Below, piece after piece: positions 22,980-45,017 of a DNA stretch of 64,000 nt. Source of the stretch: an uncultured archaeon (GTDB lineage Archaea; Asgardarchaeota; Lokiarchaeia; Sigyniarchaeales; SOKP01); contig CAYUTF010000001.1 in the NCBI GenBank assembly GCA_964447495.1, positions 1 to 64,000 of the forward strand, read 5' to 3'. Each line of letters opens with the position of its first letter. The first letter of the stretch is position 1. A model generated the notes under the pieces. The model was not told where the DNA came from and ran no database searches. It saw only the letters and a program-made list of their open reading frames with translations. Position numbers and translations under genes: made by a program.

Positions 22980-23081
22980 GCCTCTGTGGCTTAGCGGTAG
23001 AGCAGCTGACTTGTAATCAGCAGGCCGTGGGTTCAAGTGCTCAAAATTAAGAATTTTGGACTGAAAATCCCACCAGGGGCT
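22980..23081 (+). tRNA. tRNA-Thr(UGU) with a 30-nt intron in the T-loop (position 59/60; intron 23038-23067)
   Basis: Acceptor stem GCCTCTG/CAGGGGC; anticodon arm GCTGA-CTTGTAA-TCAGC; T-stem GTGGG/CCCAC; BHB with a TTCA/TGAA central helix and AGT/AAT bulges. Spliced T-loop reads TTCAAGT. CCA is not encoded. Confidence 0.93.
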
Positions 23082-32579: not shown

Positions 32580-33521
32580 ATGAAATCTGATGGGAGAGAG
32601 ATTTCTGGAGGGAAAATTGAAAAAGCAACAGAGCTATTGTGGAAAATTTGGTGGTTTTCCTTTTATATGCTTATTGTTCCTTCTTTAATTGCTGTAATTG
32701 GGTTTTTTATCTTTTACTTTATGCTTCATGATGTTTTTATTTCATCTGGATTTACCGTTCTAACCTTTATGTTTTCACTACTTGTTTTTTATAAACCATT
32801 TGATAAATATAGAAATGATCCATTCTTTCTTAAAAGTACAAATAATCCTTCAGCACGAATACATATTTTATATTTAATATCAATAGTAGCATTAATTGTT
32901 ACTCCCATTTTTGTCTACATCACTCCCGAGAATTACCATTTTGAACTATTACCTTTAATATCCTATTGTATATTGTATAATGTAGTATATCTTTATTTCA
33001 TATTCCAACCAATTGATTATTTTGATTTTTCGGAAGGTAAGTTCAAACATTCAGGACCTTTTTCAGATTCAGTAAAAAAATTCTATAATTATATCATCGT
33101 TATTAATTTTATCTCTCATGTAGTGTTCCTATCATATACTTTTGATACAAAATATTCTTGGTTATTTGCACTTATATCAGATCTGATATTTTATTTAATC
33201 TCCATCTTATCAACGAGAAGTTTATGTAAGAAAATTACTATAAAAATTCAACAAAAAGAACCAATAATTTCCGAACTAAATGAGTATAAGCATAAATTTT
33301 CAATTTTAGTAATTAGTCTAATTTTTTTGTTATTAATCCAAATGCCATTCGTCGTTATTATAATCTTTAGTCTATTGGGTCAAGTATTTTCATATATAGA
33401 AATTTTTAACGCCTCTTTATTTTCTATAGCACTATTTCTGTTTTACTTAAAAACTAGAGTCTATTTTAGTATTTATCATTATAGAAGCATAAAAAGGAGT
33501 GAGTTCGATGCAAAAGAATGA
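32580..33521 (+). CDS. Hypothetical polytopic membrane protein (about 8 TM); possibly the N-terminal part of the next ORF
   Basis: Hydrophobic ORF overlapping the start of the 2548-aa ORF, which is in the +1 frame. Confidence 0.7.
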   Translation: MKSDGREISGGKIEKATELLWKIWWFSFYMLIVPSLIAVIGFFIFYFMLHDVFISSGFTVLTFMFSLLVFYKPFDKYRNDPFFLKSTNNPSARIHILYLISIVALIVTPIFVYITPENYHFELLPLISYCILYNVVYLYFIFQPIDYFDFSEGKFKHSGPFSDSVKKFYNYIIVINFISHVVFLSYTFDTKYSWLFALISDLIFYLISILSTRSLCKKITIKIQQKEPIISELNEYKHKFSILVISLIFLLLIQMPFVVIIIFSLLGQVFSYIEIFNASLFSIALFLFYLKTRVYFSIYHYRSIKRSEFDAKE

Positions 33522-36500
33522 TACATTAGGTTCTGATAGTAAAATTCAGAGATATCAAATTATTAATCTATTATTATCATTGAGTTTTATATTAACAAGT
33601 ATTATATTTGCGTATTTAATTGAATACCCCGTTATAATTCTTATAATTACTCCTATAATTCTTTTAATAACTTATTATGAACAAAAATCCGAAATTTGTC
33701 CTCGAAAATATAGCCGATATGTATATTTAGTTAGCATTTTAGTGATATTAGGGGTTATGAATTTTTGGATAATACCTCTCTTTTTTGTAACTTATCCAAT
33801 GAATATTCAAGTAATAGTATTTTCTATTGTCCTATACCTTTTATTGCAATACTTTATAAGATATGATTATTTTAGAAGAGAGAATGTAATTATCGCACAA
33901 CATCTCTTAGCTTTTCTTACATTTTTAACTTTTATTTATTCACTCTTTCCCATTCTTAGTTTTGAATTCTCCAGTATTTCAAATGAATCTATTGTTTTGA
34001 TTTTAAATATCTTAACTCATGTATTAATTAATCTTTGTGTATTATTAAGCTCATTTTATTACCTCTATATTCGCCAATTGCAAATAAAATCATCTCGATT
34101 TTTCAATATAAGCATAATGGCGATTTTTTTACTAATTGAGTTCGTTTCTTATGCTATAATAAATTTAATGAACTTTTTTCTTGTACCTTTCGATATATTT
34201 ATACAAACTTTTCTTTTAAGTGTAAATTTAATTCCAGTTATTTTCTTAGGTTATGTATTTTTGAACTATATTTTAGGAATCATTCCTGAAAAGCTAAGTA
34301 AAAAGTTGGCGTATATATTATTTTGGAATATTTTAATTATGATATGTTTTTCGATAATCGTTATTTTTTATTATTCCTTCCGAGTGATACTTATAACACT
34401 TTTATGTTTTTCAATCATTTCCCAATTCTTAGTTAAGTTTGGGTTTAATAATGCAATTATTTCAGAGAAAATCTTAACCTGGTATAGAAAATTAAGTTTT
34501 TATTTGATATATTTAGAAGTGTTTATTTTAGCATTCACTTCATTCTTTGAACTATTTCAAGTATTTGAGATACTCCAAAATCTATTCTTATCAACTTTCT
34601 TTTCTCTAGTAATCATCACTGTTTTACATAATGTCGTGTATAGCACTTTTCATATCTCAAAACTTTTAGCTTACATCCTAAATACTAGCTTATTATTTTT
34701 TACTAACTTCTTGGTGTTTTTTTATAGCGCTCTTTTAACTTTAAACACATTCTATATCTTTCTAATTCCTATTACTTTTTCAAGTATTTTTTTAAATATT
34801 CCATTATACTATTTAAAAACTGTTGTGAAAAAGAGGTTTTTAATCAAAAAATTAATTATTATTAATAGTTTTATTGTTTCAATTGCTTTTACAGCTATTC
34901 CTTCAGTTATCTCCTTAGAAATGATTAAATTAGGGTACCTTGTTGATATTGTGTCTACATTTAATTTTTCTATCTACATTCTTTACATAATATTGGGATG
35001 CATTTACATTTTTTCCAGGAGTCTCAATCTAAAGGAAAATAGCAAAACTGCAATTCTAAAATCTCAGGTTTTTATAGAAATCATAATTGCATTTACGACA
35101 GTTTTTTATTATCTGAATGTGCTCCTTAAAGATACATTATATGGCTTTATATTACCAATTTTAGCTACATCGGCCTTTTTATATATCCCCTTATTATTTT
35201 CTTACAAAAAGAACTATTTCCTAAACCTATCGATCCGAAGAATTATCATAGTTAATACTTTTATTTTTTGGATTTGCATTATTTCCACACCTTCTTTCAT
35301 AGCACTTGAATTAGCGATTTTAGGGTTCAATGTTGATTCAAATGTGATTATCTTAGTGAGTATAATACTATGGTTCATTTTTTTAAAATTCCTTGACATT
35401 ATCACACAGTTTTTAAAGATTAAAGAGAAGGGTATTGAATTCATAAAAATTTGTCAAATTTTTAGCTGGATTGCAATTTGCATTTTGGTTAGTAGGCAGG
35501 TTTTTCTATTCTTATTTGATATTTTTAGTGGTGATCTTCTTTGGGGAGTAAACATTTCTATTTCACTTATATCATTTTTACTGCTAAATATCCTTAATTT
35601 ATCGTTATTGGAAAGTTTAAAACAGATTACTTTTGAAAATAGAGAGAGCAAATATGATTATTATAAAATTTATAAAATTTATGAATATAATAAAAATCTC
35701 ATTTATTTTGGATTGATTTTTGCGATATCTCTGCTAATAAGTTTATTAACTCAACAGATTGGGTTATTATCGCTTATTTTTATAGATGAGACGATTCTTA
35801 TCCCCTTACTGGTTCAAATAGGTATATTTATGCTAATTTCTTTACTATTATTGCGCATCACTTCATCCTTTTTTGAAATAGAGTTTGTTAAAACCAAATT
35901 AATCTTAGAAGCAATATGTTGGTTTGTTTTAAAGATAATAATATGCCTGATTTTAATATTCATTCCTTTTAATATATCCTTCTTTAATCGATTTTTATTA
36001 GTCGTATTAGTGTTTTCAGTCTTAAGTCCGATAAGTTTGTATTTCTTAAGTGAACTCTTTGTCATTTTAGACTCATCAATAAGAAGAATGAAAAAAATCA
36101 TAATAATAATCTTCCTTATATCTGCTCTAATATTTTTCTCAGAACTGTATTGGTTAATATATTTTGATCTCCATCTTTTTGCTATTGATCAAACTCTTTT
36201 AATTTTAAATTATGCTTGTATAGTTTACCTATTTTTAAATTTCGTAATTACTTATTATCACAATATTTTTGAGGGAGAAGAAAGCTTAAAGATTTACAAG
36301 ATATTCGGACTAGATATCTTGCTCTCCACCTCATTGCTATTGATTAATTCTAGCTTCTTTATCTTTTTCTTACTTCTCCTCTATTCTATTATTTTATATA
36401 ATAGAAACCGAAATATTGTATTTCGCATAATGATATACTTGGTTCTTTCAATTTTTTGTTTAATTGAAGTATTGATTAATTTTAATTATTTTAATTTTTT

Positions 36501-39500
36501 GAAAGCGTATATCCTCAATGATATTGGTTTCTTTATATTAATTGCACTAATCTCAATTATATCAGTTTTATTATTTTCAGTTATCATTAATGCTAAACGA
36601 GAGAATTTTATCGAGAATCATTTGCTTTATATTTTATTCTCATTATTGTCTTATTTTACACTTCTAACTTTCACTTTATTACCCCAAATATACAGTCTCT
36701 CGATTTTAATTTTAGTTTATTTGTTATTTATTGGAGTATCCCTATATCGACGGGAAAGTGAAAATTATAAGTGGTATATTGGTCCATGCATTCTTATTTT
36801 TATATTTGATTTTATTTTCTTTTCCTCAGACGTTTTTCTTTTCACTGGAACATTATTTTACAAGTACAAAGCAATACTAGGAATATCTCTAACATTAAGT
36901 ATCACAGGATTGCTATTCATATTAATATATAATAGCGCATCCAAGAATTTGAGAAAATATTCGTTTATTGTAGTTTTAGGAATGATTTTAGGAACATTGC
37001 CTACATTTATATATTTTCTGTTGATTTCTCTATTCGCACTCCCTATTTTAGATCCTATAGCATTAATTGTTGCCATAAATGTCTTCATATTTCTTTTTTA
37101 TCTCTCAATTGGGATTTATCAAGGGAAAATCTCATGGCAAATTTGGAGAACTGGTTGGTGGCTGTGGATTATCTGTCCAATTGCTAATTTTTATATCATC
37201 TATGAAAGTTTCGCAGGTGTAGATCTTTTTACGAAATCATTATCCTTTTTCGGTCTCTTCACCATTAATGGCTCATTTATCCTTTCCATCATGATCTGTA
37301 TAGTGATTTCACTTCCATTTTGGTATTCCTGGATTAAAAAACATTTTTCTGAAACTTTGTTGATAGTGTGGGGGTTAAGTTTATTTGCTTTGTATTGGCT
37401 AAGTCAAAATATATTTGCCGATAACATATTCTTCACAAATTTTCTCTTTATCCTTTTTGCAATCTTTTTATTAATACCCATATTTTTTTGGATGAAAGTA
37501 TGGAAATTATTATCACTCCTTTGGACAATCTTCTCAATAACTATGGTCGTATTTTTATTTATCCTTTTTAGTGAGTTAGGTTTTATCTTTGAGATAAATT
37601 TTTCTCTTAATATTATGATAGGTGGAACTTTTTTCATCATAGCATCGTTTTTTCCTACATTTCAAGCTCAGAAGAGTGTTATTCTAATATTATCTTACTC
37701 AATGGTTATAATTGGAATATTCTTGACGGTGTATAATATTAATTACTTGCTATTTTTAAATTTTCCAATCTCATTAGCTATTTCTTTAATAATTATTGGA
37801 ATGAGTCTTTTTAGTTCCAAGCTGTTCAAATTAAACCAATCAATATTTAATTTTCTTATCTCAATTGTTCTAATCTTTGGGTTCTCATTACTCAGCTATA
37901 TAACATTTAGTCTAATACCTAACTTTGAGCTATTTTCTGTATTTTTGACAATAACCGTTGCGGGGATCTCGTTTTTTGCCTTTAACCATTATAAAATGTT
38001 ATTAGGAATTAAGAAAATAATCCCTATCTCTATACTTTCTATTGGATTATCTTTAACGTTATCTAATTTAGTTCTAATACTCTTTTCGGATGCATTCTTT
38101 TTATCAGGTTCAGTTTTTATTGCGATTAATTTAATCTTCCTTTATTATTTATTGTATGAAAAAAGATTCATTATGTTGTATTTATTTCCTCTGCCATTTA
38201 CAATCTTTTTTCTTGAATTTATAAGACTTATTGAAATTTTTCAACCTTTAGCTATTTTTATACTAATTGGTTTGATGTTATACACTACTTTCTTTCAACT
38301 TATCTTAAACATACTAAATCCAAATAACCAAAAAGTTAAAGAAGAAGATTTAAAAGGCTTAAAGAAGTTTTTCAAAAATCAGAATCAAGTAAAAGTATTA
38401 AATTTTCTCTCATTAGTTTTAAATAGCACATATTTCTCACTTTTTATAGCATTTATAAGCCAATTATCTATTTTGTATAAGATAATAGAATTCTTCATTA
38501 TATGGTCTATTTTGATCTTAATAAGTTTTAAATATTATAAAAAGTGGGGGTTAGACAAGGAATTTGTTGTCATATCTTCAAAAATTTTGAAATTCGGCTC
38601 TCTAATTGCTTTATTCTTATATTTCGAAATCTCTATCTTAATGCTTGGATTGTTAATGGAATTTTTCTTATTGGATATTCAAACAAGTGTGATAATTTCC
38701 TTGACATTTTATTTCCTTCTAAATACATTGGATATTTATGTTATTAAAAAAGGTTATAAAAATGTAATGCACATTCTAAATATTATCGTCTATACCTTTC
38801 TTTCGATTTATACATATATATTCTTAAATCAATTTACAATAATTAATAGTGATTTAGCTCTCCTCTTTATAATAATACTATTATTGATGCAATTCTATAC
38901 TAACTATGCCACATTTAACTTTTTAAAAGGATTCAATAAATATGATAACACTAAACTAGATAACCTTAAAGGGTATATCAAAAATATTATATTAAATTTA
39001 ATCTATATTACGATAAGTCTTTATAGTGCAACATTAATAGTTAGTTTTTTCCAAGTGAGCTTTCTGGGTATTTATGCTATTTCTTTATTCTCGTTATACA
39101 TCATGATATTCTCCCTTTTAATGTATTTCTTTAACTATATCATCAAGAGCAAATTTAAACCTATTTTAACCTCTTCACTTTTTATTGTATTTCAACTTTC
39201 ATTAGGATTATTCTGGGTATCTTTTTCTATTTATCTGAATTTATTAAATTTATTCAATATATCATTGATACTCATAGCTGAGACAACACTATCTTTTTAT
39301 TCTACTAAATTATTAGGAATGTTATTTAAAGAAAAAATTAGGGAAAATATAGTAGCTCAAATTTATTCGATCATAACGATTATTATATATTTTGAGTTAT
39401 CTTTCCTTGTTTATAGCATTTCAAATTTAATCTTAGGAATCTATGAAAGCTTATTAGCCTCACAAATATCAATATTTTTAATTTCTTTTCTTGAAATAGA

Positions 39501-41145
39501 CATTTTAAAGCGAATGAAAGTGAAATATATGCTTATTATCCAATTATTAAGCTATTTGGCCATTTCTTTACTCATCTTAGTTATTTTTAGTCAGATATAT
39601 ATTTTAAAAATCAATTTTGTTTTTCTGTCTATTGTTCTACTCACTTTAATGCAATTCTATACAAATTATTTGTATTTCAAGATTAGAAAGTTATCACATC
39701 CCGAGAAAGAGAATATATTTATCAAGTGGAAAAAATATAGACAGAATATCCTTGGAATATGTTTCTATATATTTTTAATCGTATACATATCCCAGAACTT
39801 ATTAAGCTTAAATCTAGAATTGCAGTTATTTTTGTTTATCATAAGTCTAATCACTCATTTACTCATAATTGGAGATAATTTCATATTCAAATTTATAGGA
39901 AAATATACTAATATAATTGTATTGATTACGTGGGCTCTAATTTTTGGTTTTTCATTCCTATACTTTCTTTCTTGGATTCCTCCTTTTTCTATTAGAGTAA
40001 TTCCAGTAATTATTTTGTTGTTATTATTAGAAATCTTATATTTATACAAGACCATTGAGTACTCCACAACGCTCAAATTTGATATTAGTAAGATTAAAAA
40101 AGTATTAATTTACCTATTTTATTTCAATTTTACTAGTTGGCCTCTTTACTATGCAACTCTCGAGGTGTTACAAACTTTAAATTTGATTCTTTTTTCTCTT
40201 GCAATTTTATTATTAATAGTTTTGATTGATAGGAGTATTGGAGCAATAAATAACACGATTAGGAAAAAATTAATAGATATATGTATTATGAGTATAGGTT
40301 TTGTTCTTTCAGTGAATATTTTTCTCTTTTTAGAATTTTATTTAATATCTAATTTCTTAGCAAATCTGTGTGTCGCCTTATTACCATTTATGCTTTTCTT
40401 AGGCTACCTATTAAAACCATTTAAGAGAAAGAAAATACTTTCATTTGCCTACTGGACATCATTATTCATATTATTAAGTATAATAACCTATAATTTAACT
40501 GCCTCAGGTTTTAGCTGGGGAATCCTCCTCTTTGGCGCAATACTTTATCCATTCATCTTCATGCTAGAAGAACTGAAATTGTTTCTTGAAAACATTGCTA
40601 CTTTTATAAAGATATCCTACTATAAAGTAAAAAATGCGATGATAACAATGTATTACAGTATTCTAAATTTCTTAATAAGAAATTTCAAATATGTAAAAGT
40701 AGTAATTTGTTTTGGGTTTGGAATTAGCATAGGAATACTCTTTTCTGATATAATATTAGGATTATTAAATCCCCTACACTCATTTTTATTAACTTTTGCT
40801 GTGTTTGGTATTTTATATGGATTAATTCCAGGTAAAAAAACTGAAGATCTAGATGAGATTTTTGAGCAAAAAATGAAAAGGTTCATAATAATTTGGATAA
40901 GCACCTCTTTATTCATTTATATATTGATATTACCCTATATTGAATCATTTATTTATTCATTAATTCTTATGACGTCATCAATATTGGGATTAGGGGCGAT
41001 TTTATTGATATTTATATATAGAAAAGAAAAGAAGAAAAAAATATCAATTAAGTGGCGTTTTTATACTACAATTGTTTCGATTTCATTAGTGATTTTTTGG
41101 GTTATATTAATTCTTATTTGGTATTTCACCGAAGTTCGAATTTAG
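33508..41145 (+). CDS. Giant polytopic membrane protein of unknown function (about 2545 aa)
   Basis: Uninterrupted 7.6-kb ORF in very AT-rich DNA with continuous alternating hydrophobic helices and short Lys-rich loops. ATG 33508 is preceded by AAGGAGTGA; GTG 33499 is the alternative start. Confidence 0.85.
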   Translation: MQKNDTLGSDSKIQRYQIINLLLSLSFILTSIIFAYLIEYPVIILIITPIILLITYYEQKSEICPRKYSRYVYLVSILVILGVMNFWIIPLFFVTYPMNIQVIVFSIVLYLLLQYFIRYDYFRRENVIIAQHLLAFLTFLTFIYSLFPILSFEFSSISNESIVLILNILTHVLINLCVLLSSFYYLYIRQLQIKSSRFFNISIMAIFLLIEFVSYAIINLMNFFLVPFDIFIQTFLLSVNLIPVIFLGYVFLNYILGIIPEKLSKKLAYILFWNILIMICFSIIVIFYYSFRVILITLLCFSIISQFLVKFGFNNAIISEKILTWYRKLSFYLIYLEVFILAFTSFFELFQVFEILQNLFLSTFFSLVIITVLHNVVYSTFHISKLLAYILNTSLLFFTNFLVFFYSALLTLNTFYIFLIPITFSSIFLNIPLYYLKTVVKKRFLIKKLIIINSFIVSIAFTAIPSVISLEMIKLGYLVDIVSTFNFSIYILYIILGCIYIFSRSLNLKENSKTAILKSQVFIEIIIAFTTVFYYLNVLLKDTLYGFILPILATSAFLYIPLLFSYKKNYFLNLSIRRIIIVNTFIFWICIISTPSFIALELAILGFNVDSNVIILVSIILWFIFLKFLDIITQFLKIKEKGIEFIKICQIFSWIAICILVSRQVFLFLFDIFSGDLLWGVNISISLISFLLLNILNLSLLESLKQITFENRESKYDYYKIYKIYEYNKNLIYFGLIFAISLLISLLTQQIGLLSLIFIDETILIPLLVQIGIFMLISLLLLRITSSFFEIEFVKTKLILEAICWFVLKIIICLILIFIPFNISFFNRFLLVVLVFSVLSPISLYFLSELFVILDSSIRRMKKIIIIIFLISALIFFSELYWLIYFDLHLFAIDQTLLILNYACIVYLFLNFVITYYHNIFEGEESLKIYKIFGLDILLSTSLLLINSSFFIFFLLLLYSIILYNRNRNIVFRIMIYLVLSIFCLIEVLINFNYFNFLKAYILNDIGFFILIALISIISVLLFSVIINAKRENFIENHLLYILFSLLSYFTLLTFTLLPQIYSLSILILVYLLFIGVSLYRRESENYKWYIGPCILIFIFDFIFFSSDVFLFTGTLFYKYKAILGISLTLSITGLLFILIYNSASKNLRKYSFIVVLGMILGTLPTFIYFLLISLFALPILDPIALIVAINVFIFLFYLSIGIYQGKISWQIWRTGWWLWIICPIANFYIIYESFAGVDLFTKSLSFFGLFTINGSFILSIMICIVISLPFWYSWIKKHFSETLLIVWGLSLFALYWLSQNIFADNIFFTNFLFILFAIFLLIPIFFWMKVWKLLSLLWTIFSITMVVFLFILFSELGFIFEINFSLNIMIGGTFFIIASFFPTFQAQKSVILILSYSMVIIGIFLTVYNINYLLFLNFPISLAISLIIIGMSLFSSKLFKLNQSIFNFLISIVLIFGFSLLSYITFSLIPNFELFSVFLTITVAGISFFAFNHYKMLLGIKKIIPISILSIGLSLTLSNLVLILFSDAFFLSGSVFIAINLIFLYYLLYEKRFIMLYLFPLPFTIFFLEFIRLIEIFQPLAIFILIGLMLYTTFFQLILNILNPNNQKVKEEDLKGLKKFFKNQNQVKVLNFLSLVLNSTYFSLFIAFISQLSILYKIIEFFIIWSILILISFKYYKKWGLDKEFVVISSKILKFGSLIALFLYFEISILMLGLLMEFFLLDIQTSVIISLTFYFLLNTLDIYVIKKGYKNVMHILNIIVYTFLSIYTYIFLNQFTIINSDLALLFIIILLLMQFYTNYATFNFLKGFNKYDNTKLDNLKGYIKNIILNLIYITISLYSATLIVSFFQVSFLGIYAISLFSLYIMIFSLLMYFFNYIIKSKFKPILTSSLFIVFQLSLGLFWVSFSIYLNLLNLFNISLILIAETTLSFYSTKLLGMLFKEKIRENIVAQIYSIITIIIYFELSFLVYSISNLILGIYESLLASQISIFLISFLEIDILKRMKVKYMLIIQLLSYLAISLLILVIFSQIYILKINFVFLSIVLLTLMQFYTNYLYFKIRKLSHPEKENIFIKWKKYRQNILGICFYIFLIVYISQNLLSLNLELQLFLFIISLITHLLIIGDNFIFKFIGKYTNIIVLITWALIFGFSFLYFLSWIPPFSIRVIPVIILLLLLEILYLYKTIEYSTTLKFDISKIKKVLIYLFYFNFTSWPLYYATLEVLQTLNLILFSLAILLLIVLIDRSIGAINNTIRKKLIDICIMSIGFVLSVNIFLFLEFYLISNFLANLCVALLPFMLFLGYLLKPFKRKKILSFAYWTSLFILLSIITYNLTASGFSWGILLFGAILYPFIFMLEELKLFLENIATFIKISYYKVKNAMITMYYSILNFLIRNFKYVKVVICFGFGISIGILFSDIILGLLNPLHSFLLTFAVFGILYGLIPGKKTEDLDEIFEQKMKRFIIIWISTSLFIYILILPYIESFIYSLILMTSSILGLGAILLIFIYRKEKKKKISIKWRFYTTIVSISLVIFWVILILIWYFTEVRI

Positions 41146-41556: not shown

Positions 41557-42096
41557 ATGGAACAAGATAAAAAAAGAATTAATGTAAAAGATTGGATAAT
41601 AACTAGTACAACGATGATTGGCGTGAATCTTACAATTCTTGCGCTTATTTGGCAAGCGGCGCCTCCCCAAGGCATTTATACAGCAACCTTGTTTTTAATG
41701 TTATCTTTTATTCTCTTTATTAATAGTGTTTCAGCAAATTCTAAAGCTAACTTTGAGGTAAAGTCTGGTAATGCGACTGAAGAGAAGATTCTAAAGTTTG
41801 TATCATTTGCGGAATATTCATTTGGGCTCGGATTTACCTTGATCATAATCGGATTTTCCATTTTGAGCTATGAATATCTATTAGATTTCATAGGAAATGA
41901 ACTTATTGTACTCATAATACCTTCAGCTTTCCTTATCACAGCATGGATTATGATTTTTATTTATAATTCGATTAATTTTTCAGGAAAACCACTTAAAGGA
42001 ATAAGGAGTCTAAAGCGTAATTTATGGATGATAATGGAACTGATTTGTTTAATAATTATCATATTAGATTTTTTTAACTTAATAATAATTCCATAA
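41557..42096 (+). CDS. Hypothetical membrane protein (about 5 TM)
   Basis: 179-aa hydrophobic ORF followed by a T-run. Confidence 0.75.
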   Translation: MEQDKKRINVKDWIITSTTMIGVNLTILALIWQAAPPQGIYTATLFLMLSFILFINSVSANSKANFEVKSGNATEEKILKFVSFAEYSFGLGFTLIIIGFSILSYEYLLDFIGNELIVLIIPSAFLITAWIMIFIYNSINFSGKPLKGIRSLKRNLWMIMELICLIIIILDFFNLIIIP

Positions 42097-42207
42097 TTTT
42101 TTTTATATTTGTTTAAGATTAATTCAGTGTTAATTTTTTAATCTAACCTAATATATCAATTTATAAAATAGTAAGAATAGAATAGTTATAAGTATTAAAA
42201 ATAGAAA

Positions 42208-42570
42208 GGCCGAGAAGATGCAAATGAAAACCGAAAGGTATTCATTGCATTTGTATAGTAATTCTTTACTTGCGTAAAGGGTTTTCAATGCATTTTCTTC
42301 AACCGAAAGTTTGATTCAAGAACCAATCATTCAATTGCTTATCCGAAGATAATGCCTACTCCCCGAGGGAAGTGAGACAAGTGCAAAATTATTGTACTCG
42401 AAAGTACATTAACTTGCAATAATACATTGCTTTTACTATACTACTTCTCGAAGTTCATACGGTAAGGTATGAACATTATATGTATTGAAAGTTGCATATT
42501 TAAATGAACCTATTAAGGGGTTATTAAATTTTTATGTCGTGAATTTCGGCATCATAGATTTTTAGGTCGG
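42208..42570. ncRNA. Unidentified large structured non-coding element (about 360 nt)
   Basis: At least 10 local hairpins plus nested long-range helices (42211-17/42444-50, 42253-61/42433-41, 42286-94/42421-29). Loops read UUCG/CUCG/GCAA on the minus strand or GAAA on the plus strand. No ORF of 60 aa or more. Confidence 0.75.
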
Positions 42571-42602
42571 GATCAAACAGCAGTTTTAATATGAATTCTT
42601 TT

Positions 42603-45017
42603 TTATATTCTATTGATATAGCATGATAAATCTTTCTGGATGAGGTTTCGATTATGATTGTTATCTAAGAGATCATCTAATTCAGGAAAATCAAGGGGAA
42701 ATAGATTCTCAAAAGCTCTTTTCAATATTTCAATATATTTCTTTTTATCATATCGATGTTTTTTCTCATCATAGAGATCTGAAAGGATGACTTTCCTTTC
42801 AGGGAATGCCTGATCCGCGTCAGCATCGAGAATGATATAGCGTATCTTTTTCCCTGCGGATGCAACTACTCCTGAGTTCTCCAGTTGTTTTGCTGCGACG
42901 GCTTGATATGAATTTACTTTGTATTTGGAAGGTTTACGAGATATTCTTTGACAGATTGTTAAATCTTCTTTCGAAATATTACCCATTTCAATATGATTTA
43001 CATAATGATATAATCGTGCTTTCGCTTCAGGAATTCTCCTTTTAAATTCCTCAACTGTTTTTGCCCCTTTAAAAACGTCAATAAAAGAGTATTGCGCATC
43101 TTTAATGACTTTGGGTATGTCTCTGCGTCGAACTTCTATTCCCCTTACCTTTATTTCATTTTTACTTTTTATACCCCAATAGTGACTCAATGCGGGAACA
43201 TCAGCCTCTGCTCGAGAAGGTAGAAATACAATAATATCAAATCTTCCATCCCAACTCATTGGAATTCTGGTTTCATCAGTAATCTCTTGAGCAAGTTGTT
43301 TAGTTACTATCTCAAACTCTTCTGGAGTTCTATTATTCGTATCTTGAAGCCACATTGAGTCAACGATTCCGTGAATTACTTTACAGCCATATTTTTCAGC
43401 AATCTCAGCAGAACGCATAAGGAATTCACGAGCAAAGGCACAAACCGTTTGGTGGGCCTCAATTTTTCCGAAACGAGCATTTTTAAACCCTAAATATCCA
43501 AAACTTACCACTAAAACCCATTTTAGCGCGATATCCGTGAACTTATAACGCAACTCTCCCGTCTTTCTTACATGTTCTTTATACTTGAGTCTTTTATTCA
43601 ATGGCAAACTAATTGATTTCGATATAATACCTTGTCTCTTTGAACAAATATGAAAATCTAATCCAGGTACTTTTATTCCTGTATTGTCATCTTTGCAGCA
43701 TTGGCAATTAATTGTTTCAGAAGAGATATTGAAGTTAGCCATCAAAGACGGGTACATTGAAGAGAAGTCTAACTCCACAACTTGAGCAAAAATGCCAATC
43801 TTTGGTTCAAAAATGTGGCCACCACGATCACTTTTAATAAGATCCATACCTGTATTGAATCCTTCGGGGCTTTTCTTGAAAGGAGGGATCAGATAATCAA
43901 GTTTGTAGGCATAATAATACTGTATTGACTGGAGTGCTCCACCAATTGTAATACGAGATAATCTCTGTAGTGAGACACGGGAAATACGTGCAACTTCAAT
44001 AACTCCCGGAATATTTCCTTCAGTGAAATGAAGGCTCGCATATGAAGTTGTATCCAGATGAAACCGGCCAGAAAAGTAGACTTGTGTTTTCGAACGATGC
44101 CTTATTATTCCATAGGACATATAATGATCGGATCTTCCTGAAAGATTGAAAATACACTCTGCTAGGGGGGTTTTATCTCGAGAGAAATAAAGTTCCTTTG
44201 TTATACGATTAACTGATGCTCGAGCAGCTAAGTAGGGGAATACAAATTCATCCCCTCTTTGAGTAAGTATTATGTCAGGATCCAGTTTCTCTATAATCCT
44301 ACTAATTTCTTTTATATTTTCTACCTCATCAGCATTATTTATTAAGAATTTTCTTTTTTTATATCCATCAGCGCGTGGAACGTTATTTTCGTCATTTTCG
44401 ACAATGCTTATTTCAGCATACGCCATAGGATCGTCATAATAGGATCTAATTCCCCGCTGCTGAACTTTTACATCTAACCAAACTGCTTTTAGGGGAGGAA
44501 GGTCATAAAATAGTTTTTCATTATCATCATTAAGGTGTAGAGAGCGTAAGTTCATGCTATCTTGATCGCTTTTTTTGTCCTTTTTTATTTCAACATTGAA
44601 GTCGCAGAGAGACATAGGGAATAAATCATTGACATAATAATACATTTGAGCAATAGGAAGATCTGTATTATAAAGAATAAAAAGACCGATTTCATTGACT
44701 TCTTGAATTACTTTCTTAAAGAAAGCGGGTTTTATTACAGAAATTCCAAGGAGTTTGGTCTTTTTATGATCTTCCAGTTTCACATATTTTTCACAAATTC
44801 TTACAGACTTGACATTATGATTTTGTTCCAGAATATGCTTAAACCGTTTTAAATCATTCCCAACGCTCTTTCTTGGAACAGCAAAAAACTCTGGAGAAAA
44901 AGAATGATGAATTCTCACAACTTTTTGCTCACTAACATTCTTTACCCAAAGAATTACCCCTTCACTGAATGTTGAGACATCTAAAAGCCAACCAGCAAAA
45001 TTTTGTTCTTGCGGCAA
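42603..45017 (-). CDS. polB2: Family B DNA polymerase, PolB2 (Dpo2-like) type
   Basis: ELDFSSMYPS, NISSET, ALKWVLVVSFGYLGF and HGIVDS (variant of YGDTDS); degenerate exonuclease motifs; TTG start. Confidence 0.88.
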   Translation of the reverse strand: MPQEQNFAGWLLDVSTFSEGVILWVKNVSEQKVVRIHHSFSPEFFAVPRKSVGNDLKRFKHILEQNHNVKSVRICEKYVKLEDHKKTKLLGISVIKPAFFKKVIQEVNEIGLFILYNTDLPIAQMYYYVNDLFPMSLCDFNVEIKKDKKSDQDSMNLRSLHLNDDNEKLFYDLPPLKAVWLDVKVQQRGIRSYYDDPMAYAEISIVENDENNVPRADGYKKRKFLINNADEVENIKEISRIIEKLDPDIILTQRGDEFVFPYLAARASVNRITKELYFSRDKTPLAECIFNLSGRSDHYMSYGIIRHRSKTQVYFSGRFHLDTTSYASLHFTEGNIPGVIEVARISRVSLQRLSRITIGGALQSIQYYYAYKLDYLIPPFKKSPEGFNTGMDLIKSDRGGHIFEPKIGIFAQVVELDFSSMYPSLMANFNISSETINCQCCKDDNTGIKVPGLDFHICSKRQGIISKSISLPLNKRLKYKEHVRKTGELRYKFTDIALKWVLVVSFGYLGFKNARFGKIEAHQTVCAFAREFLMRSAEIAEKYGCKVIHGIVDSMWLQDTNNRTPEEFEIVTKQLAQEITDETRIPMSWDGRFDIIVFLPSRAEADVPALSHYWGIKSKNEIKVRGIEVRRRDIPKVIKDAQYSFIDVFKGAKTVEEFKRRIPEAKARLYHYVNHIEMGNISKEDLTICQRISRKPSKYKVNSYQAVAAKQLENSGVVASAGKKIRYIILDADADQAFPERKVILSDLYDEKKHRYDKKKYIEILKRAFENLFPLDFPELDDLLDNNHNRNLIQKDLSCYINRI

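What the first reader, a model, noticed from the sequence alone, without database searches (positions are those of the whole stretch)
42208..42570. Unannotated ~360-nt multi-domain structured RNA (or ssDNA) element abutting polB2
Seen: this ORF-free intergenic stretch is almost entirely base-pairable in a nested architecture. Long-range helices are CGAGAAG(42211-17)/CTTCTCG(42444-50), GTATAGTAA(42253-61)/TTACTATAC(42433-41), CAATGCATT(42286-94)/AATACATTG(42421-29), TTCTT/AAGAA, TGCAA/TTGCA, and a possible overall closure GGCC(42208)/GGTC(42565). Local hairpins are ATGCAA-ATGAA-ACC[GAAA]GGT-TTCAT-TGCAT, CTTTAC[TTGC]GTAAAG, TCAACC[GAAA]GTTTGA, TTATC[CGAA]GATAA, ACTCCC[CGAG]GGAAGT, TGTACT[CGAA]AGTACA, GTTCATAC[6]GTATGAAC, ATATGTA[..GAAA..]TGCATAT, AACCT[..]GGGTT and ATGTCG[7]CGGCAT. 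On the minus strand the loops read C(UUCG)G, U(UUCG)A, CUCG and C(GCAA)G, the RNA starts ~35 nt after the polB2 stop, and it ends in a U-rich tract. On the plus strand there are GAAA loops, several G-U pairs and TATA-like boxes at 42160 and 42186. Strand is therefore unresolved, leaning minus. Established: UNCG/GNRA tetraloops mark functional structured RNAs. I see no RNase P (GAGGAAAGUCC / AACAGAA), SRP helix 8, tRNA, rRNA, hammerhead or group II D5 signature. Inference: a new class of large Asgard ncRNA (ribozyme, scaffold or template), possibly linked to the PolB2 damage-tolerance module.
Basis: partly seen in the sequence, partly recalled or inferred. Interest (0 to 1): 0.88.

Follow-up and report, generated by a model that had tools for sequence, protein, structure and literature searches.

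The report
New abundant structured RNA in Lokiarchaeia
The stretch holds a real, highly expressed, about 240-base folded non-coding RNA with its own promoter, found only in one family of Asgard (Loki-type) archaea and matching no known RNA family; what it does is still unknown.

Summary
The nested helices at 42211-42450 are real. The strand is minus, and this stretch is the whole RNA. It folds far better than shuffles (z -8.4). It is kept with compensatory changes in relatives: 68 of 77 pairs changed on both sides, 88% of cells paired against about 40% in slid controls. Metatranscriptome contigs from four studies cover only 42209-42446, one with adapter letters at both ends. The remaining 42452-42575 is not supported as folded RNA (z -1.8). 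It is a sequence-conserved upstream block: two CGAC-A-run boxes, a 17-bp element, a perfect TTTAAATA box, then 46 nt to the first helix, including one conserved leader hairpin. No Rfam family matches. The genome's RNase P and SRP RNAs lie elsewhere. The gene occurs in 58 of 135 genomes of one Asgard family, and in 0 of 125 genomes of 26 other families of the phylum. It has one to four tandem modules. The polymerase neighbour is shared by only about half of the loci, so no link to PolB is supported. Best reading: a new lineage-specific, processed, stable RNA, probably a protein-binding scaffold. The function is inferred, not shown.

The parts
42209..42450 (-). Mature RNA module of about 242 nt. 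It is a rod of three stacked long-range helices (P1-P2-P3) with two side hairpins and a four-hairpin 'crown'.
   Evidence: MFE -80.3 kcal/mol, z -8.44, and the centroid equals the MFE. CM R1 scores 255 bits. Covariation is shown. RNA contigs of 4 studies cover 42209-42446 only.
42444..42450 (-). P1 5' strand (CGAGAAG). It pairs with 42211-42217 (CUUCUCG). The 7-bp terminal helix is nearly invariant in sequence.
   Evidence: In alignment A1, 6 of its 7 pairs never vary. In A2, 94% of its cells are paired.
42211..42217 (-). P1 3' strand
   Evidence: RNA contigs end at 42209-42211 in three runs.
42433..42441 (-). P2 5' strand. It pairs with 42253-42261.
   Evidence: 6 of its 8 pairs show changes on both sides in A2.
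42253..42261 (-). P2 3' strand
42421..42429 (-). P3 5' strand. It pairs with 42286-42294.
   Evidence: All 9 pairs show changes on both sides in A2.
42286..42294 (-). P3 3' strand
42382..42418 (-). Crown hairpin A, with a UUCG loop
   Evidence: Helices 4 and 5 covary. Relatives carry insertions at its tip.
42353..42379 (-). Crown hairpin B, with a CUCG loop
   Evidence: This is the weakest helix: 73% of cells paired in A2.
42339..42352 (-). Crown hairpin C, C(UUCG)G
   Evidence: All 5 pairs show changes on both sides.
42300..42337 (-). Crown hairpin D, with a CUUG loop
   Evidence: All 16 pairs of helices 8 and 9 show changes on both sides.
42264..42279 (-). Side hairpin E, between the 3' strands of P3 and P2
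   Evidence: All 5 pairs of helix 11 covary.
42218..42250 (-). Side hairpin F. It abuts the P1 3' strand and is conserved in sequence.
   Evidence: 8 of the 9 pairs of helix 12 show changes on both sides.
42197..42207 (-). U-rich tract after a conserved CC. Probable transcription terminator.
   Evidence: Sequence. The run of A followed by GG on the plus strand was found in 32 of 34 relatives by the pattern. Its role as terminator is inferred.
42453..42474 (-). Leader hairpin just upstream of P1. It is absent from the RNA contigs. The predicted transcription start lies at its first base.
   Evidence: It is the only helix RNAalifold keeps in the upstream block (8 pairs). It is conserved in all 29 aligned relatives, with U.G pairs on the minus strand. 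It is duplicated in two relatives.
42497..42504 (-). TTTAAATA box. Probable TATA box of the RNA gene.
   Evidence: Six of its eight columns are invariant and two nearly so in 29 relatives. It lies exactly 46 nt from P1 in 28 of 34 loci examined. Its promoter function is inferred.
42510..42526 (-). Conserved 17-bp upstream element (TAATAAYCCNTTAATAG)
   Evidence: Together with the TATA box it is unique in this genome. In all species genomes scanned it was found only in Asgard MAGs.
42529..42539 (-). Proximal CGAC + A-run box
42559..42569 (-). Distal CGAC + A-run box. It marks the upstream edge of conservation.
   Evidence: CGAC is invariant in 29 relatives.

Best explanation
A stand-alone gene on the minus strand encodes a new family of stable, highly expressed, structured non-coding RNA. 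The family is restricted to one family of Loki-type Asgard archaea.

Shown:
- The mature species is the roughly 240-nt domain 42450->42209. Its two ends are locked in an almost invariant 7-bp helix.
- The fold is conserved through many compensatory changes.
- The RNA is present in metatranscriptomes while the neighbouring genes are not seen there.
- Relatives carry one to four such modules in tandem, each preceded by a small hairpin.

Inferred:
- Transcription starts about 23 nt downstream of the invariant TTTAAATA box, at the first base of the leader hairpin.
- It stops in the U tract after the conserved CC.
- An endonuclease cuts between each small hairpin and the following P1, and 3' trimming stops at P1. 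This releases exonuclease-resistant modules.

Most likely role (inferred): a protein-binding scaffold of a small ribonucleoprotein. The conserved P1-P2-P3 rod and hairpin F would be the recognition surface, and the variable UUCG-capped crown hairpins would be structural.

The CGAC boxes and the 17-bp element would bind a regulator of this promoter.
For: Fold:
- z -8.44.
- A sequence-only MAFFT alignment of 8 relatives gives 92.1% paired cells against 38-44% when partners are slid, and 32 of 77 pairs changed on both sides.
- The CM alignment of 49 modules gives 88.1% against 37-42%, 68 of 77 pairs, and 0 of 500 shuffles as high.

Strand:
- The minus strand folds better in 32 of 32 relatives, by 23.8 kcal/mol on average.
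- There are 310 G.U cells against 82 A.C cells.
- Loops read UUCG, UCCG and CUCG on the minus strand.
- The adapter order in contig X8 puts read 1 on the plus strand.

Expression and ends:
- Contigs of 4 RNA runs from 4 studies lie only within 42209-42446.
- Three start at 42209-42211.
- One has adapter letters directly at 42211 and 42446.

Promoter:
- The TATA box is invariant, and the spacing to P1 is fixed at 46 nt in 28 of 34 loci.
- The upstream block keeps its sequence (74% mean column identity) but shows no structure beyond one hairpin.

Independence from neighbours.

Tandem modules with spacer hairpins.

No known family.
Against: - No protein partner was identified. No conserved neighbouring gene exists.
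- Few unpaired nucleotides are conserved, so no binding motif can be named.
- The contigs cannot show exact ends, strand or level. The 5' end (42446 in one run, about 42438 in a relative) falls short of the full P1.
- Removal of the leader rests on absence of cover plus one adapter junction.
- The transcription start and the terminator are predicted only.
- The gene is missing from about half of the genomes of its two main genera. These include 100%-complete genomes and an empty syntenic site. The RNA is therefore dispensable, which fits an accessory role better than a core housekeeping particle.
- The CM alignment is fitted to the model, which inflates the pair counts.
Confidence: 0.6

Rival explanations
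1. Self-processing catalytic RNA. Each module is a ribozyme that cuts itself free of the leader or spacer hairpin at the base of P1, which would explain the discrete ends and the tandem arrays.
For: Discrete ends lie at a helix base. Modules are tandem, with short spacers. The sequence of P1 and of the junction is nearly invariant. The size and ornate fold are compatible with catalysis.
Against: No match to any self-cleaving ribozyme or intron family in Rfam, even at E up to 10. The one weak twister-P3 match (24 bits, E 0.41, below the cut-off of 39.9) lies outside the RNA in a relative. Almost no conserved unpaired nucleotides could form an active site. No covarying pseudoknot was seen.
Confidence: 0.1
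2. Regulatory decoy or sponge RNA. An abundant, dispensable RNA would sequester a protein, as 6S, CsrB or type III antitoxin RNAs do. Module number would set its capacity.
For: High abundance relative to neighbours. Patchy presence and an empty syntenic site. Variable module copy number of 1 to 4. A conserved upstream block that could make expression conditional.
Against: There is no repeated single-stranded binding motif; the loops are structural tetraloops. No toxin or partner gene lies next to it. Modules of 230 nt are far larger than known antitoxin repeats (size of those repeats is recalled, not taken from a call).
Confidence: 0.15
3. Cis element of the DNA polymerase gene: a 3' UTR, a terminator, or a template or cofactor RNA of PolB.
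For: It lies 150 nt downstream of polB on the same strand in the window. It is next to polB in 17 of 33 related loci.
Against: The other 16 of 33 loci have different neighbours: a small membrane protein, Zn-ribbon, GNAT, gelsolin or histidine kinase genes. The element carries its own conserved promoter block wherever it sits. One genome has polB and the 179-aa ORF homologue 180 nt apart with no RNA. RNA contigs do not extend into polB.
Confidence: 0.03
4. Divergent copy of a known housekeeping RNA (RNase P, SRP, tRNA-like or tmRNA-like), or a non-autonomous mobile element.
For: The terminal 7-bp helix followed by a long-range helix, with a hairpin abutting the 3' strand, resembles the end-to-end closure of RNase P, SRP and tmRNA-type RNAs (resemblance recalled, not tested by a model).
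Against: RNase P RNA (141 bits) and SRP RNA (69 bits, full model length) lie on other contigs of this genome. No Rfam hit falls here. ARAGORN finds nothing. There is a single copy in the genome and no scattered copies.
Confidence: 0.03

Closest known systems
Large 'ornate' bacterial ncRNAs of unknown or recently emerging function (OLE, ROOL, GOLLD, raiA; names and properties recalled, only their Rfam models were tested)
   Same: An abundant, stand-alone, multi-junction RNA of hundreds of nucleotides. It was found by its structure and has a patchy, lineage-restricted distribution. Its peripheral hairpins vary while the core is kept. No function is evident from gene neighbours.
   Different: No Rfam model of any of them matches. 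The host is archaeal. The unit is a 230-nt module that occurs in tandem arrays of 1 to 4 behind one promoter. The ends are locked in an invariant 7-bp helix.
Archaeal RNase P RNA and SRP (7S) RNA
   Same: Stable archaeal RNAs of 250-320 nt whose 5' and 3' ends pair. They are protein-bound scaffolds or ribozymes with variable peripheral helices.
   Different: Both are present elsewhere in this genome. The element matches neither model. It is dispensable: 58 of 135 family genomes carry it.
HgcC/HgcE-G-type archaeal ncRNAs found as G+C-rich islands in A+T-rich genomes (recalled)
   Same: A G+C-enriched island (36% against a genome mean of 31%) that marks a structured RNA of unknown function in an A+T-rich archaeon.
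   Different: No Rfam match. It is larger, modular, and from a different lineage.
Polycistronic small-RNA precursors cut at hairpins (CRISPR pre-crRNA cut by Cas6; type III antitoxin arrays; both recalled)
   Same: One promoter is followed by repeats of [small hairpin + unit], which suggests hairpin-guided endonucleolytic release.
   Different: The units are 200-330-nt folded domains that are homologous to each other, not guides. No cas or toxin gene lies nearby. The hairpin occurs only at this locus in the genome.

Membership tests
Archaeal RNase P RNA (RF00373) | Match to the covariance model (P4 pseudoknot core, CR-I/CR-V) | tested here: not met
   No match in 42050-42700 at E up to 10. The genome's RNase P RNA lies at C58:17535-17858, 140.9 bits.
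Archaeal SRP RNA (RF01857) | Match to the covariance model (helix 8, helix 5, helix 6) | tested here: not met
   No match here. A full-length model match of 68.7 bits, E 4e-15, lies at C69:5207-5464.
tRNA / tmRNA | Cloverleaf or tRNA-like domain with a T-loop, detectable by ARAGORN or Rfam | tested here: not met
   ARAGORN finds 0 genes in 41800-42900. There is no Rfam tRNA or tmRNA hit there.
Known self-cleaving ribozymes and group I/II introns (Rfam) | Match to any of their covariance models | tested here: not met
   None in the window region or in 5 related loci at E up to 1. The exception is a twister-P3 match of 24.1 bits (cut-off 39.9) outside the RNA in L018.
Known self-cleaving ribozymes and group I/II introns (Rfam) | Self-cleavage or splicing activity | not testable with these tools
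   Needs an in vitro assay.
Non-autonomous mobile element (MITE-like) | Many dispersed copies with terminal inverted repeats and target-site duplications | tested here: not met
   One copy in the 3.8-Mb genome. Most relatives have one locus. Extra copies are tandem.
Y RNA / Ro60 particle | A Ro60 (TROVE) protein gene in the genome, and a Y RNA model match | tested here: not met
   No TROVE match in the genome, which is 98% complete. The control rang in 2 of 14 genomes. No Rfam Y RNA hit.
Vault RNA / vault particle | A major vault protein gene in the genome | tested here: inconclusive
   No PF01505 match, but the control rang in none of 14 genomes, so the search is uninformative.
   17 of 33 related loci have polB within the locus. 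One genome has an empty site between polB and the ORF179 homologue.
Conserved structured ncRNA (generic criteria) | Fold better than shuffles, compensatory changes in relatives, transcription | tested here: met
   z -8.44. 32 of 77 pairs changed on both sides in a sequence-only alignment and 68 of 77 in the CM alignment. RNA contigs from 4 studies.

The most novel reading that the evidence does not exclude
The modules are the RNA cores of a previously unseen small ribonucleoprotein particle of Loki-type Asgard archaea. They would be cut out of a polycistronic precursor by a hairpin-guided endonuclease. The invariant purine/pyrimidine P1 helix and the P1-P2-P3 rod would recruit a dedicated protein, or would form a catalytic or self-assembling core. 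This would be an archaeal counterpart in kind, not in descent, of eukaryotic small stable RNPs or of the cage-forming bacterial ROOL/GOLLD RNAs.
Probability: 0.12. Interest if true: 0.85.

Novelty: categorically new. Interest (0 to 1): 0.66.

Why it matters
Almost nothing is known about non-coding RNAs of Asgard archaea beyond rRNA, tRNA, RNase P and SRP. My four full-text searches found no paper describing this RNA. This one is abundant in sediment and salt-marsh metatranscriptomes. It has a well-defined fold supported by dozens of compensatory pairs, a sharply defined promoter cassette, and a modular tandem architecture.

It gives:
(i) a new RNA family that could be added to Rfam and used to annotate these genomes;
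(ii) a natural example of an archaeal promoter with conserved upstream elements and fixed geometry in a lineage where promoters are unstudied;

Because it is dispensable, natural strains with and without it could be compared.

Tried and rejected
RNase P, SRP, tRNA, tmRNA, known ribozymes and introns: rejected by Rfam and ARAGORN.

Y RNA: no TROVE gene. Vault: the search was uninformative because the control rang nowhere.

Mobile element: single copy.

PolB link: not conserved. Partner protein among neighbours: the small ORF upstream in the second genus is a hydrophobic membrane protein. Its homologue in this genome lies on another contig. Other neighbours differ from locus to locus.

Similarity or complementarity of the RNA to other parts of the genome, including the only 23S piece assembled: only chance-level words.

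Pseudoknots or tertiary pairs from mutual information on the 49-module alignment: none convincing.

tRNA-like reading of the 7-bp P1 plus N-CC 3' end: dropped. Internal modules of tandem arrays lack the CC, and hairpin F has no T-loop.

Plus-strand RNA with TATA-like boxes at 42160 and 42186: rejected.

Parts without RNA cover: no contig of the four RNA runs lay on 41600-42208 or 42447-43200. The tool itself warns that this proves nothing. No DNA run was laid, so the contig stops are at most a weak hint.

A blastn hit in G001 (27 nt, E 0.008) was treated as chance.

R1 misses the 345-nt size class when run genome-wide, so the counts are lower bounds.

Supplementary files of papers were not consulted. 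For papers I saw only search listings and the starts of abstracts.
Full report
WHAT IS THERE.
Window 42097-42602 holds no long ORF. It lies between a 179-aa ORF with no family match (+, 41557-42096) and an 804-aa family-B DNA polymerase (-, 42603-45017).
- P1: 42444-50 with 42211-17.
- P2: 42433-41 with 42253-61.
- P3: 42421-29 with 42286-94.
- Four 'crown' hairpins inside P3: 42382-418, 42353-79, 42339-52 and 42300-37.
- Side hairpin E: 42264-79.
- Side hairpin F: 42218-50.

IS IT MORE THAN CHANCE?
Yes. The whole 381-nt stretch has z -5.1 on the plus strand and -5.3 on the minus strand. The 244-nt core alone gives -80.3 kcal/mol and z -8.44 on the minus strand, with the centroid identical to the MFE. 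The plus strand gives -65.5 kcal/mol and z -4.80. By contrast, 42452-42575 has z -1.80, and 12 of 200 shuffles fold as well.

NOT A KNOWN FAMILY.
Rfam 15 at gathering thresholds finds only a tRNA at 22980 in the whole window. At E up to 10 the region gives three meaningless partial matches. Five related loci give nothing except a sub-threshold twister-P3 match outside the RNA. ARAGORN finds nothing. The genome has its RNase P RNA on contig 58 (140.9 bits) and an SRP RNA on contig 69 (68.7 bits, full model length), so the element is neither. It is single-copy in the 3.8-Mb, 98%-complete genome.

RELATIVES AND COVARIATION.
blastn first found only the 42438-42539 part in 11 of 24 genomes of the same genus; one of those 11 matches, G001, I later treated as chance. 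Reading the loci showed that the hairpin-rich part is present too but has diverged in sequence. The end motifs are kept.

A sequence-only MAFFT alignment of eight relatives of the same size class gave an RNAalifold structure of 77 pairs. Of these, 32 show changes on both sides. Paired cells are 92.1%, against 38-44% when partners are slid by 1-3 columns, and 0 of 500 shuffles reach the covariation score.

A covariance model built from this alignment (R1) found 49 full-length modules in all 34 sources searched. On that alignment, 68 of 77 pairs change on both sides. Paired cells are 88.1% against 37-42% for slid partners, and 0 of 500 shuffles are as high. One caveat: this alignment is fitted to the model.

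Insertions of up to about 150 columns sit at the tips of the crown hairpins. Conserved sequence is concentrated in P1, the outer parts of P2 and P3, and hairpin F. I saw no convincing pseudoknot.

STRAND.
The minus strand folds better in 32 of 32 relatives, by 23.8 kcal/mol on average. In the helices there are 310 G.U/U.G cells against 82 A.C/C.A cells. The loops read UUCG, UCCG, CUCG and CUUG on the minus strand. The RNA is therefore on the minus strand, co-directional with polB.

EXPRESSION AND ENDS.
Twenty-four public runs hold part of the stretch, all from salt-marsh, wetland or sediment metagenomes; eight of them are RNA runs. Contigs of four metatranscriptome runs from four studies were laid on 41600-43200. 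They lie only within 42209-42446:
- X10: 42209-42359.
- X14: 42209-42414.
- X8: 42211-42446.
- X13 (a close relative, depth 68-81): 42222-42412, and it then continues with its own variant letters.

The X8 contig carries sequencing-adapter letters directly before 42211 and directly behind 42446. That insert was therefore a recurrent, discrete molecule. The adapter order puts read 1 on the plus strand. In the common dUTP-type stranded libraries this means a minus-strand RNA; the adapter identity is recalled from memory, and the rule is stated in the tool text.

Contigs cannot give exact ends or levels, and uncovered parts prove nothing. With those limits, the abundant species matches the P1-closed domain: 3' end at 42209-42211, 5' end at or a few bases upstream of 42446. 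Full P1 pairing would need 42450.

On the minus strand, 42452-42575 lies upstream of the RNA. In 29 aligned relatives it is the best-conserved part in sequence (74% mean column identity) but shows structure only in one hairpin. From upstream to downstream it contains:
- a CGAC + A-run box (42559-69), which is the sharp edge of conservation;
- a variable spacer;
- a second CGAC + A-run box (42529-39);
- a 17-bp element (42510-26);
- 5 bp;
- TTTAAATA (42497-504), which equals the archaeal box-A consensus as I recall it;
- a 22-nt spacer;
- the leader hairpin (42453-74);
- 2 nt;
- P1.

I examined 34 loci for the distance from the box to P1:
- It is 46 nt in 28.
- It is 45 nt in one.
- In one, my pattern caught an upstream look-alike box.
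- Four did not fit the pattern: two have a duplicated leader hairpin, one has a variant box and one a variant P1.

With a TATA box centred near -27 (established archaeal geometry, recalled), transcription would start at the first base of the hairpin. On the minus strand the gene ends in CC followed by a U tract (42197-42207). The complementary run of A followed by GG was found in 32 of 34 relatives. The promoter, the start site and the terminator are inferred.

TANDEM MODULES.
Seven related loci hold three full-length modules in a row behind one upstream block. An eighth, L022, gave two hits with room for a third between them. One metagenome contig holds four. One genome has two complete cassette-plus-module units in tandem. 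The 18-25-nt spacers between modules form small hairpins like the leader hairpin. The repeating unit is thus [small hairpin + module]. This is why I infer hairpin-linked endonucleolytic release. No data show whether the arrays are cut.

DISTRIBUTION.
A model of the upstream block plus P1 (R2) matches 58 of 135 genomes of the family:
- own genus: 19 of 41, plus the window's genome;
- second genus: 37 of 54;
- third genus: 1 of 6;
- ten other genera: 0 of 33.

In a sample of the phylum, R2 matches 12 of 25 genomes of this family and 0 of 125 genomes of 26 other families. R1 gave 50 of 151 in the order sample, with none in 19 genomes of three other families. It misses the 345-nt class genome-wide: one 'negative' genome does have the element next to polB.

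An exact pattern for the 17-bp element plus box hits 31 of 135 family genomes, against 0 for the reversed control. It adds two genomes that R2 missed. Across one genome for each of 185,579 species it hits 31 stretches, all in Asgard MAGs. By record title these are 23 Promethearchaeota/-ia, 3 'Hodarchaeota', 2 'Hermodarchaeota', 1 'Thorarchaeota', 1 'Odinarchaeota' and 1 'uncultured archaeon'. In metagenome contigs it hits 41 stretches, and 32 of them have an R1 module directly downstream.

Absence is real in at least some genomes. One 100%-complete genome of the same genus has polB and a 63%-identical homologue of the 179-aa ORF only 180 nt apart, with no trace of the element.

NO LINK TO THE POLYMERASE.
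polB lies within the fetched locus in 17 of 33 relatives, and in three of those another ORF lies between. The other 16, mostly the 314-nt class of the second genus, have unrelated neighbours: a small membrane protein, and Zn-ribbon, GNAT, gelsolin-repeat or histidine-kinase genes. The upstream block travels with the RNA, not with any neighbour.

HOW IT MOST LIKELY WORKS.
Shown: a conserved fold, the minus strand, presence in metatranscriptomes, a discrete molecule of about 240 nt, its own conserved upstream block, and modular tandem arrays.

Inferred:
- a strong TATA-driven promoter under control of a factor that binds the CGAC boxes and the 17-bp element;
- a primary transcript that begins with the leader hairpin;
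- cutting between hairpin and P1, and 3' trimming back to P1;
- a stable RNA with closed ends that acts through bound protein. The sequence-invariant P1-P2-P3 rod and hairpin F would be the recognition surface.

I put about 0.85 on 'real, new, expressed, stand-alone minus-strand RNA' and about 0.4 on 'protein scaffold'. That gives 0.6 for the combined statement. The rivals are self-cleaving ribozyme, decoy or sponge, PolB cis element, and divergent known RNA or mobile element. They are weighed in their own sections.

NOVELTY.
No Rfam family matches. Four full-text searches listed no paper on such an RNA; I saw listings and the starts of abstracts only. I rate it as a new RNA family with no known relatives. 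Its kind of function remains open.

Noticed in passing
window 33499-41145 (+): A 2548-aa ORF directly upstream of the 179-aa ORF has no Pfam family at E 0.001. It is a giant protein of unknown kind.
   Followed up: partly
window 22980-23041 (+): The only Rfam gathering-level hit in the window is a tRNA of just 62 nt covering model positions 1-71, at 32.6 bits, barely above the cut-off of 29. Its 3' end as read looks short. It may be a truncated, split or intron-bearing tRNA.
   Followed up: no
G000 contig C69:5207-5464 (L010): The genome's SRP RNA match spans the full model but is only 258 nt long. It scores 68.7 bits, below Rfam's gathering score of 96.5. This suggests a short or divergent SRP RNA in this lineage.
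   Followed up: no
G000 contig C218:1200-1498 (L213): The only 23S rRNA match in the genome is a 299-nt piece (model positions 1804-2099) in the middle of a 2743-nt contig. The flanks were not examined. Possible causes are a fragmented assembly, insertions, or an artefact of the search.
   Followed up: no
L039 1600-1666 and L048 1600-1664: Two relatives carry a tandem duplication of the leader hairpin between the TATA box and P1. The same 22-nt-longer match to R2 is seen in several genomes of the second genus (171-173-nt matches).
   Followed up: partly
G107 contig C76:5099-5987: Two complete units (upstream block plus module) lie head to tail about 510 nt apart, each with its own TATA cassette. 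This is a different mode of duplication from the promoter-less tandem modules.
   Followed up: partly
L036 2431-3042 and L046 2417-3016: Gelsolin-repeat proteins of about 200 aa lie a few hundred bases downstream of the RNA in some relatives. This fits an Asgard host. No link to the RNA was tested.
   Followed up: no
L077 1-2346 (G142): In the genome with the empty site, the polymerase reading frame is longer (open frame 845 aa against 804) and runs into what is intergenic DNA elsewhere.
   Followed up: no
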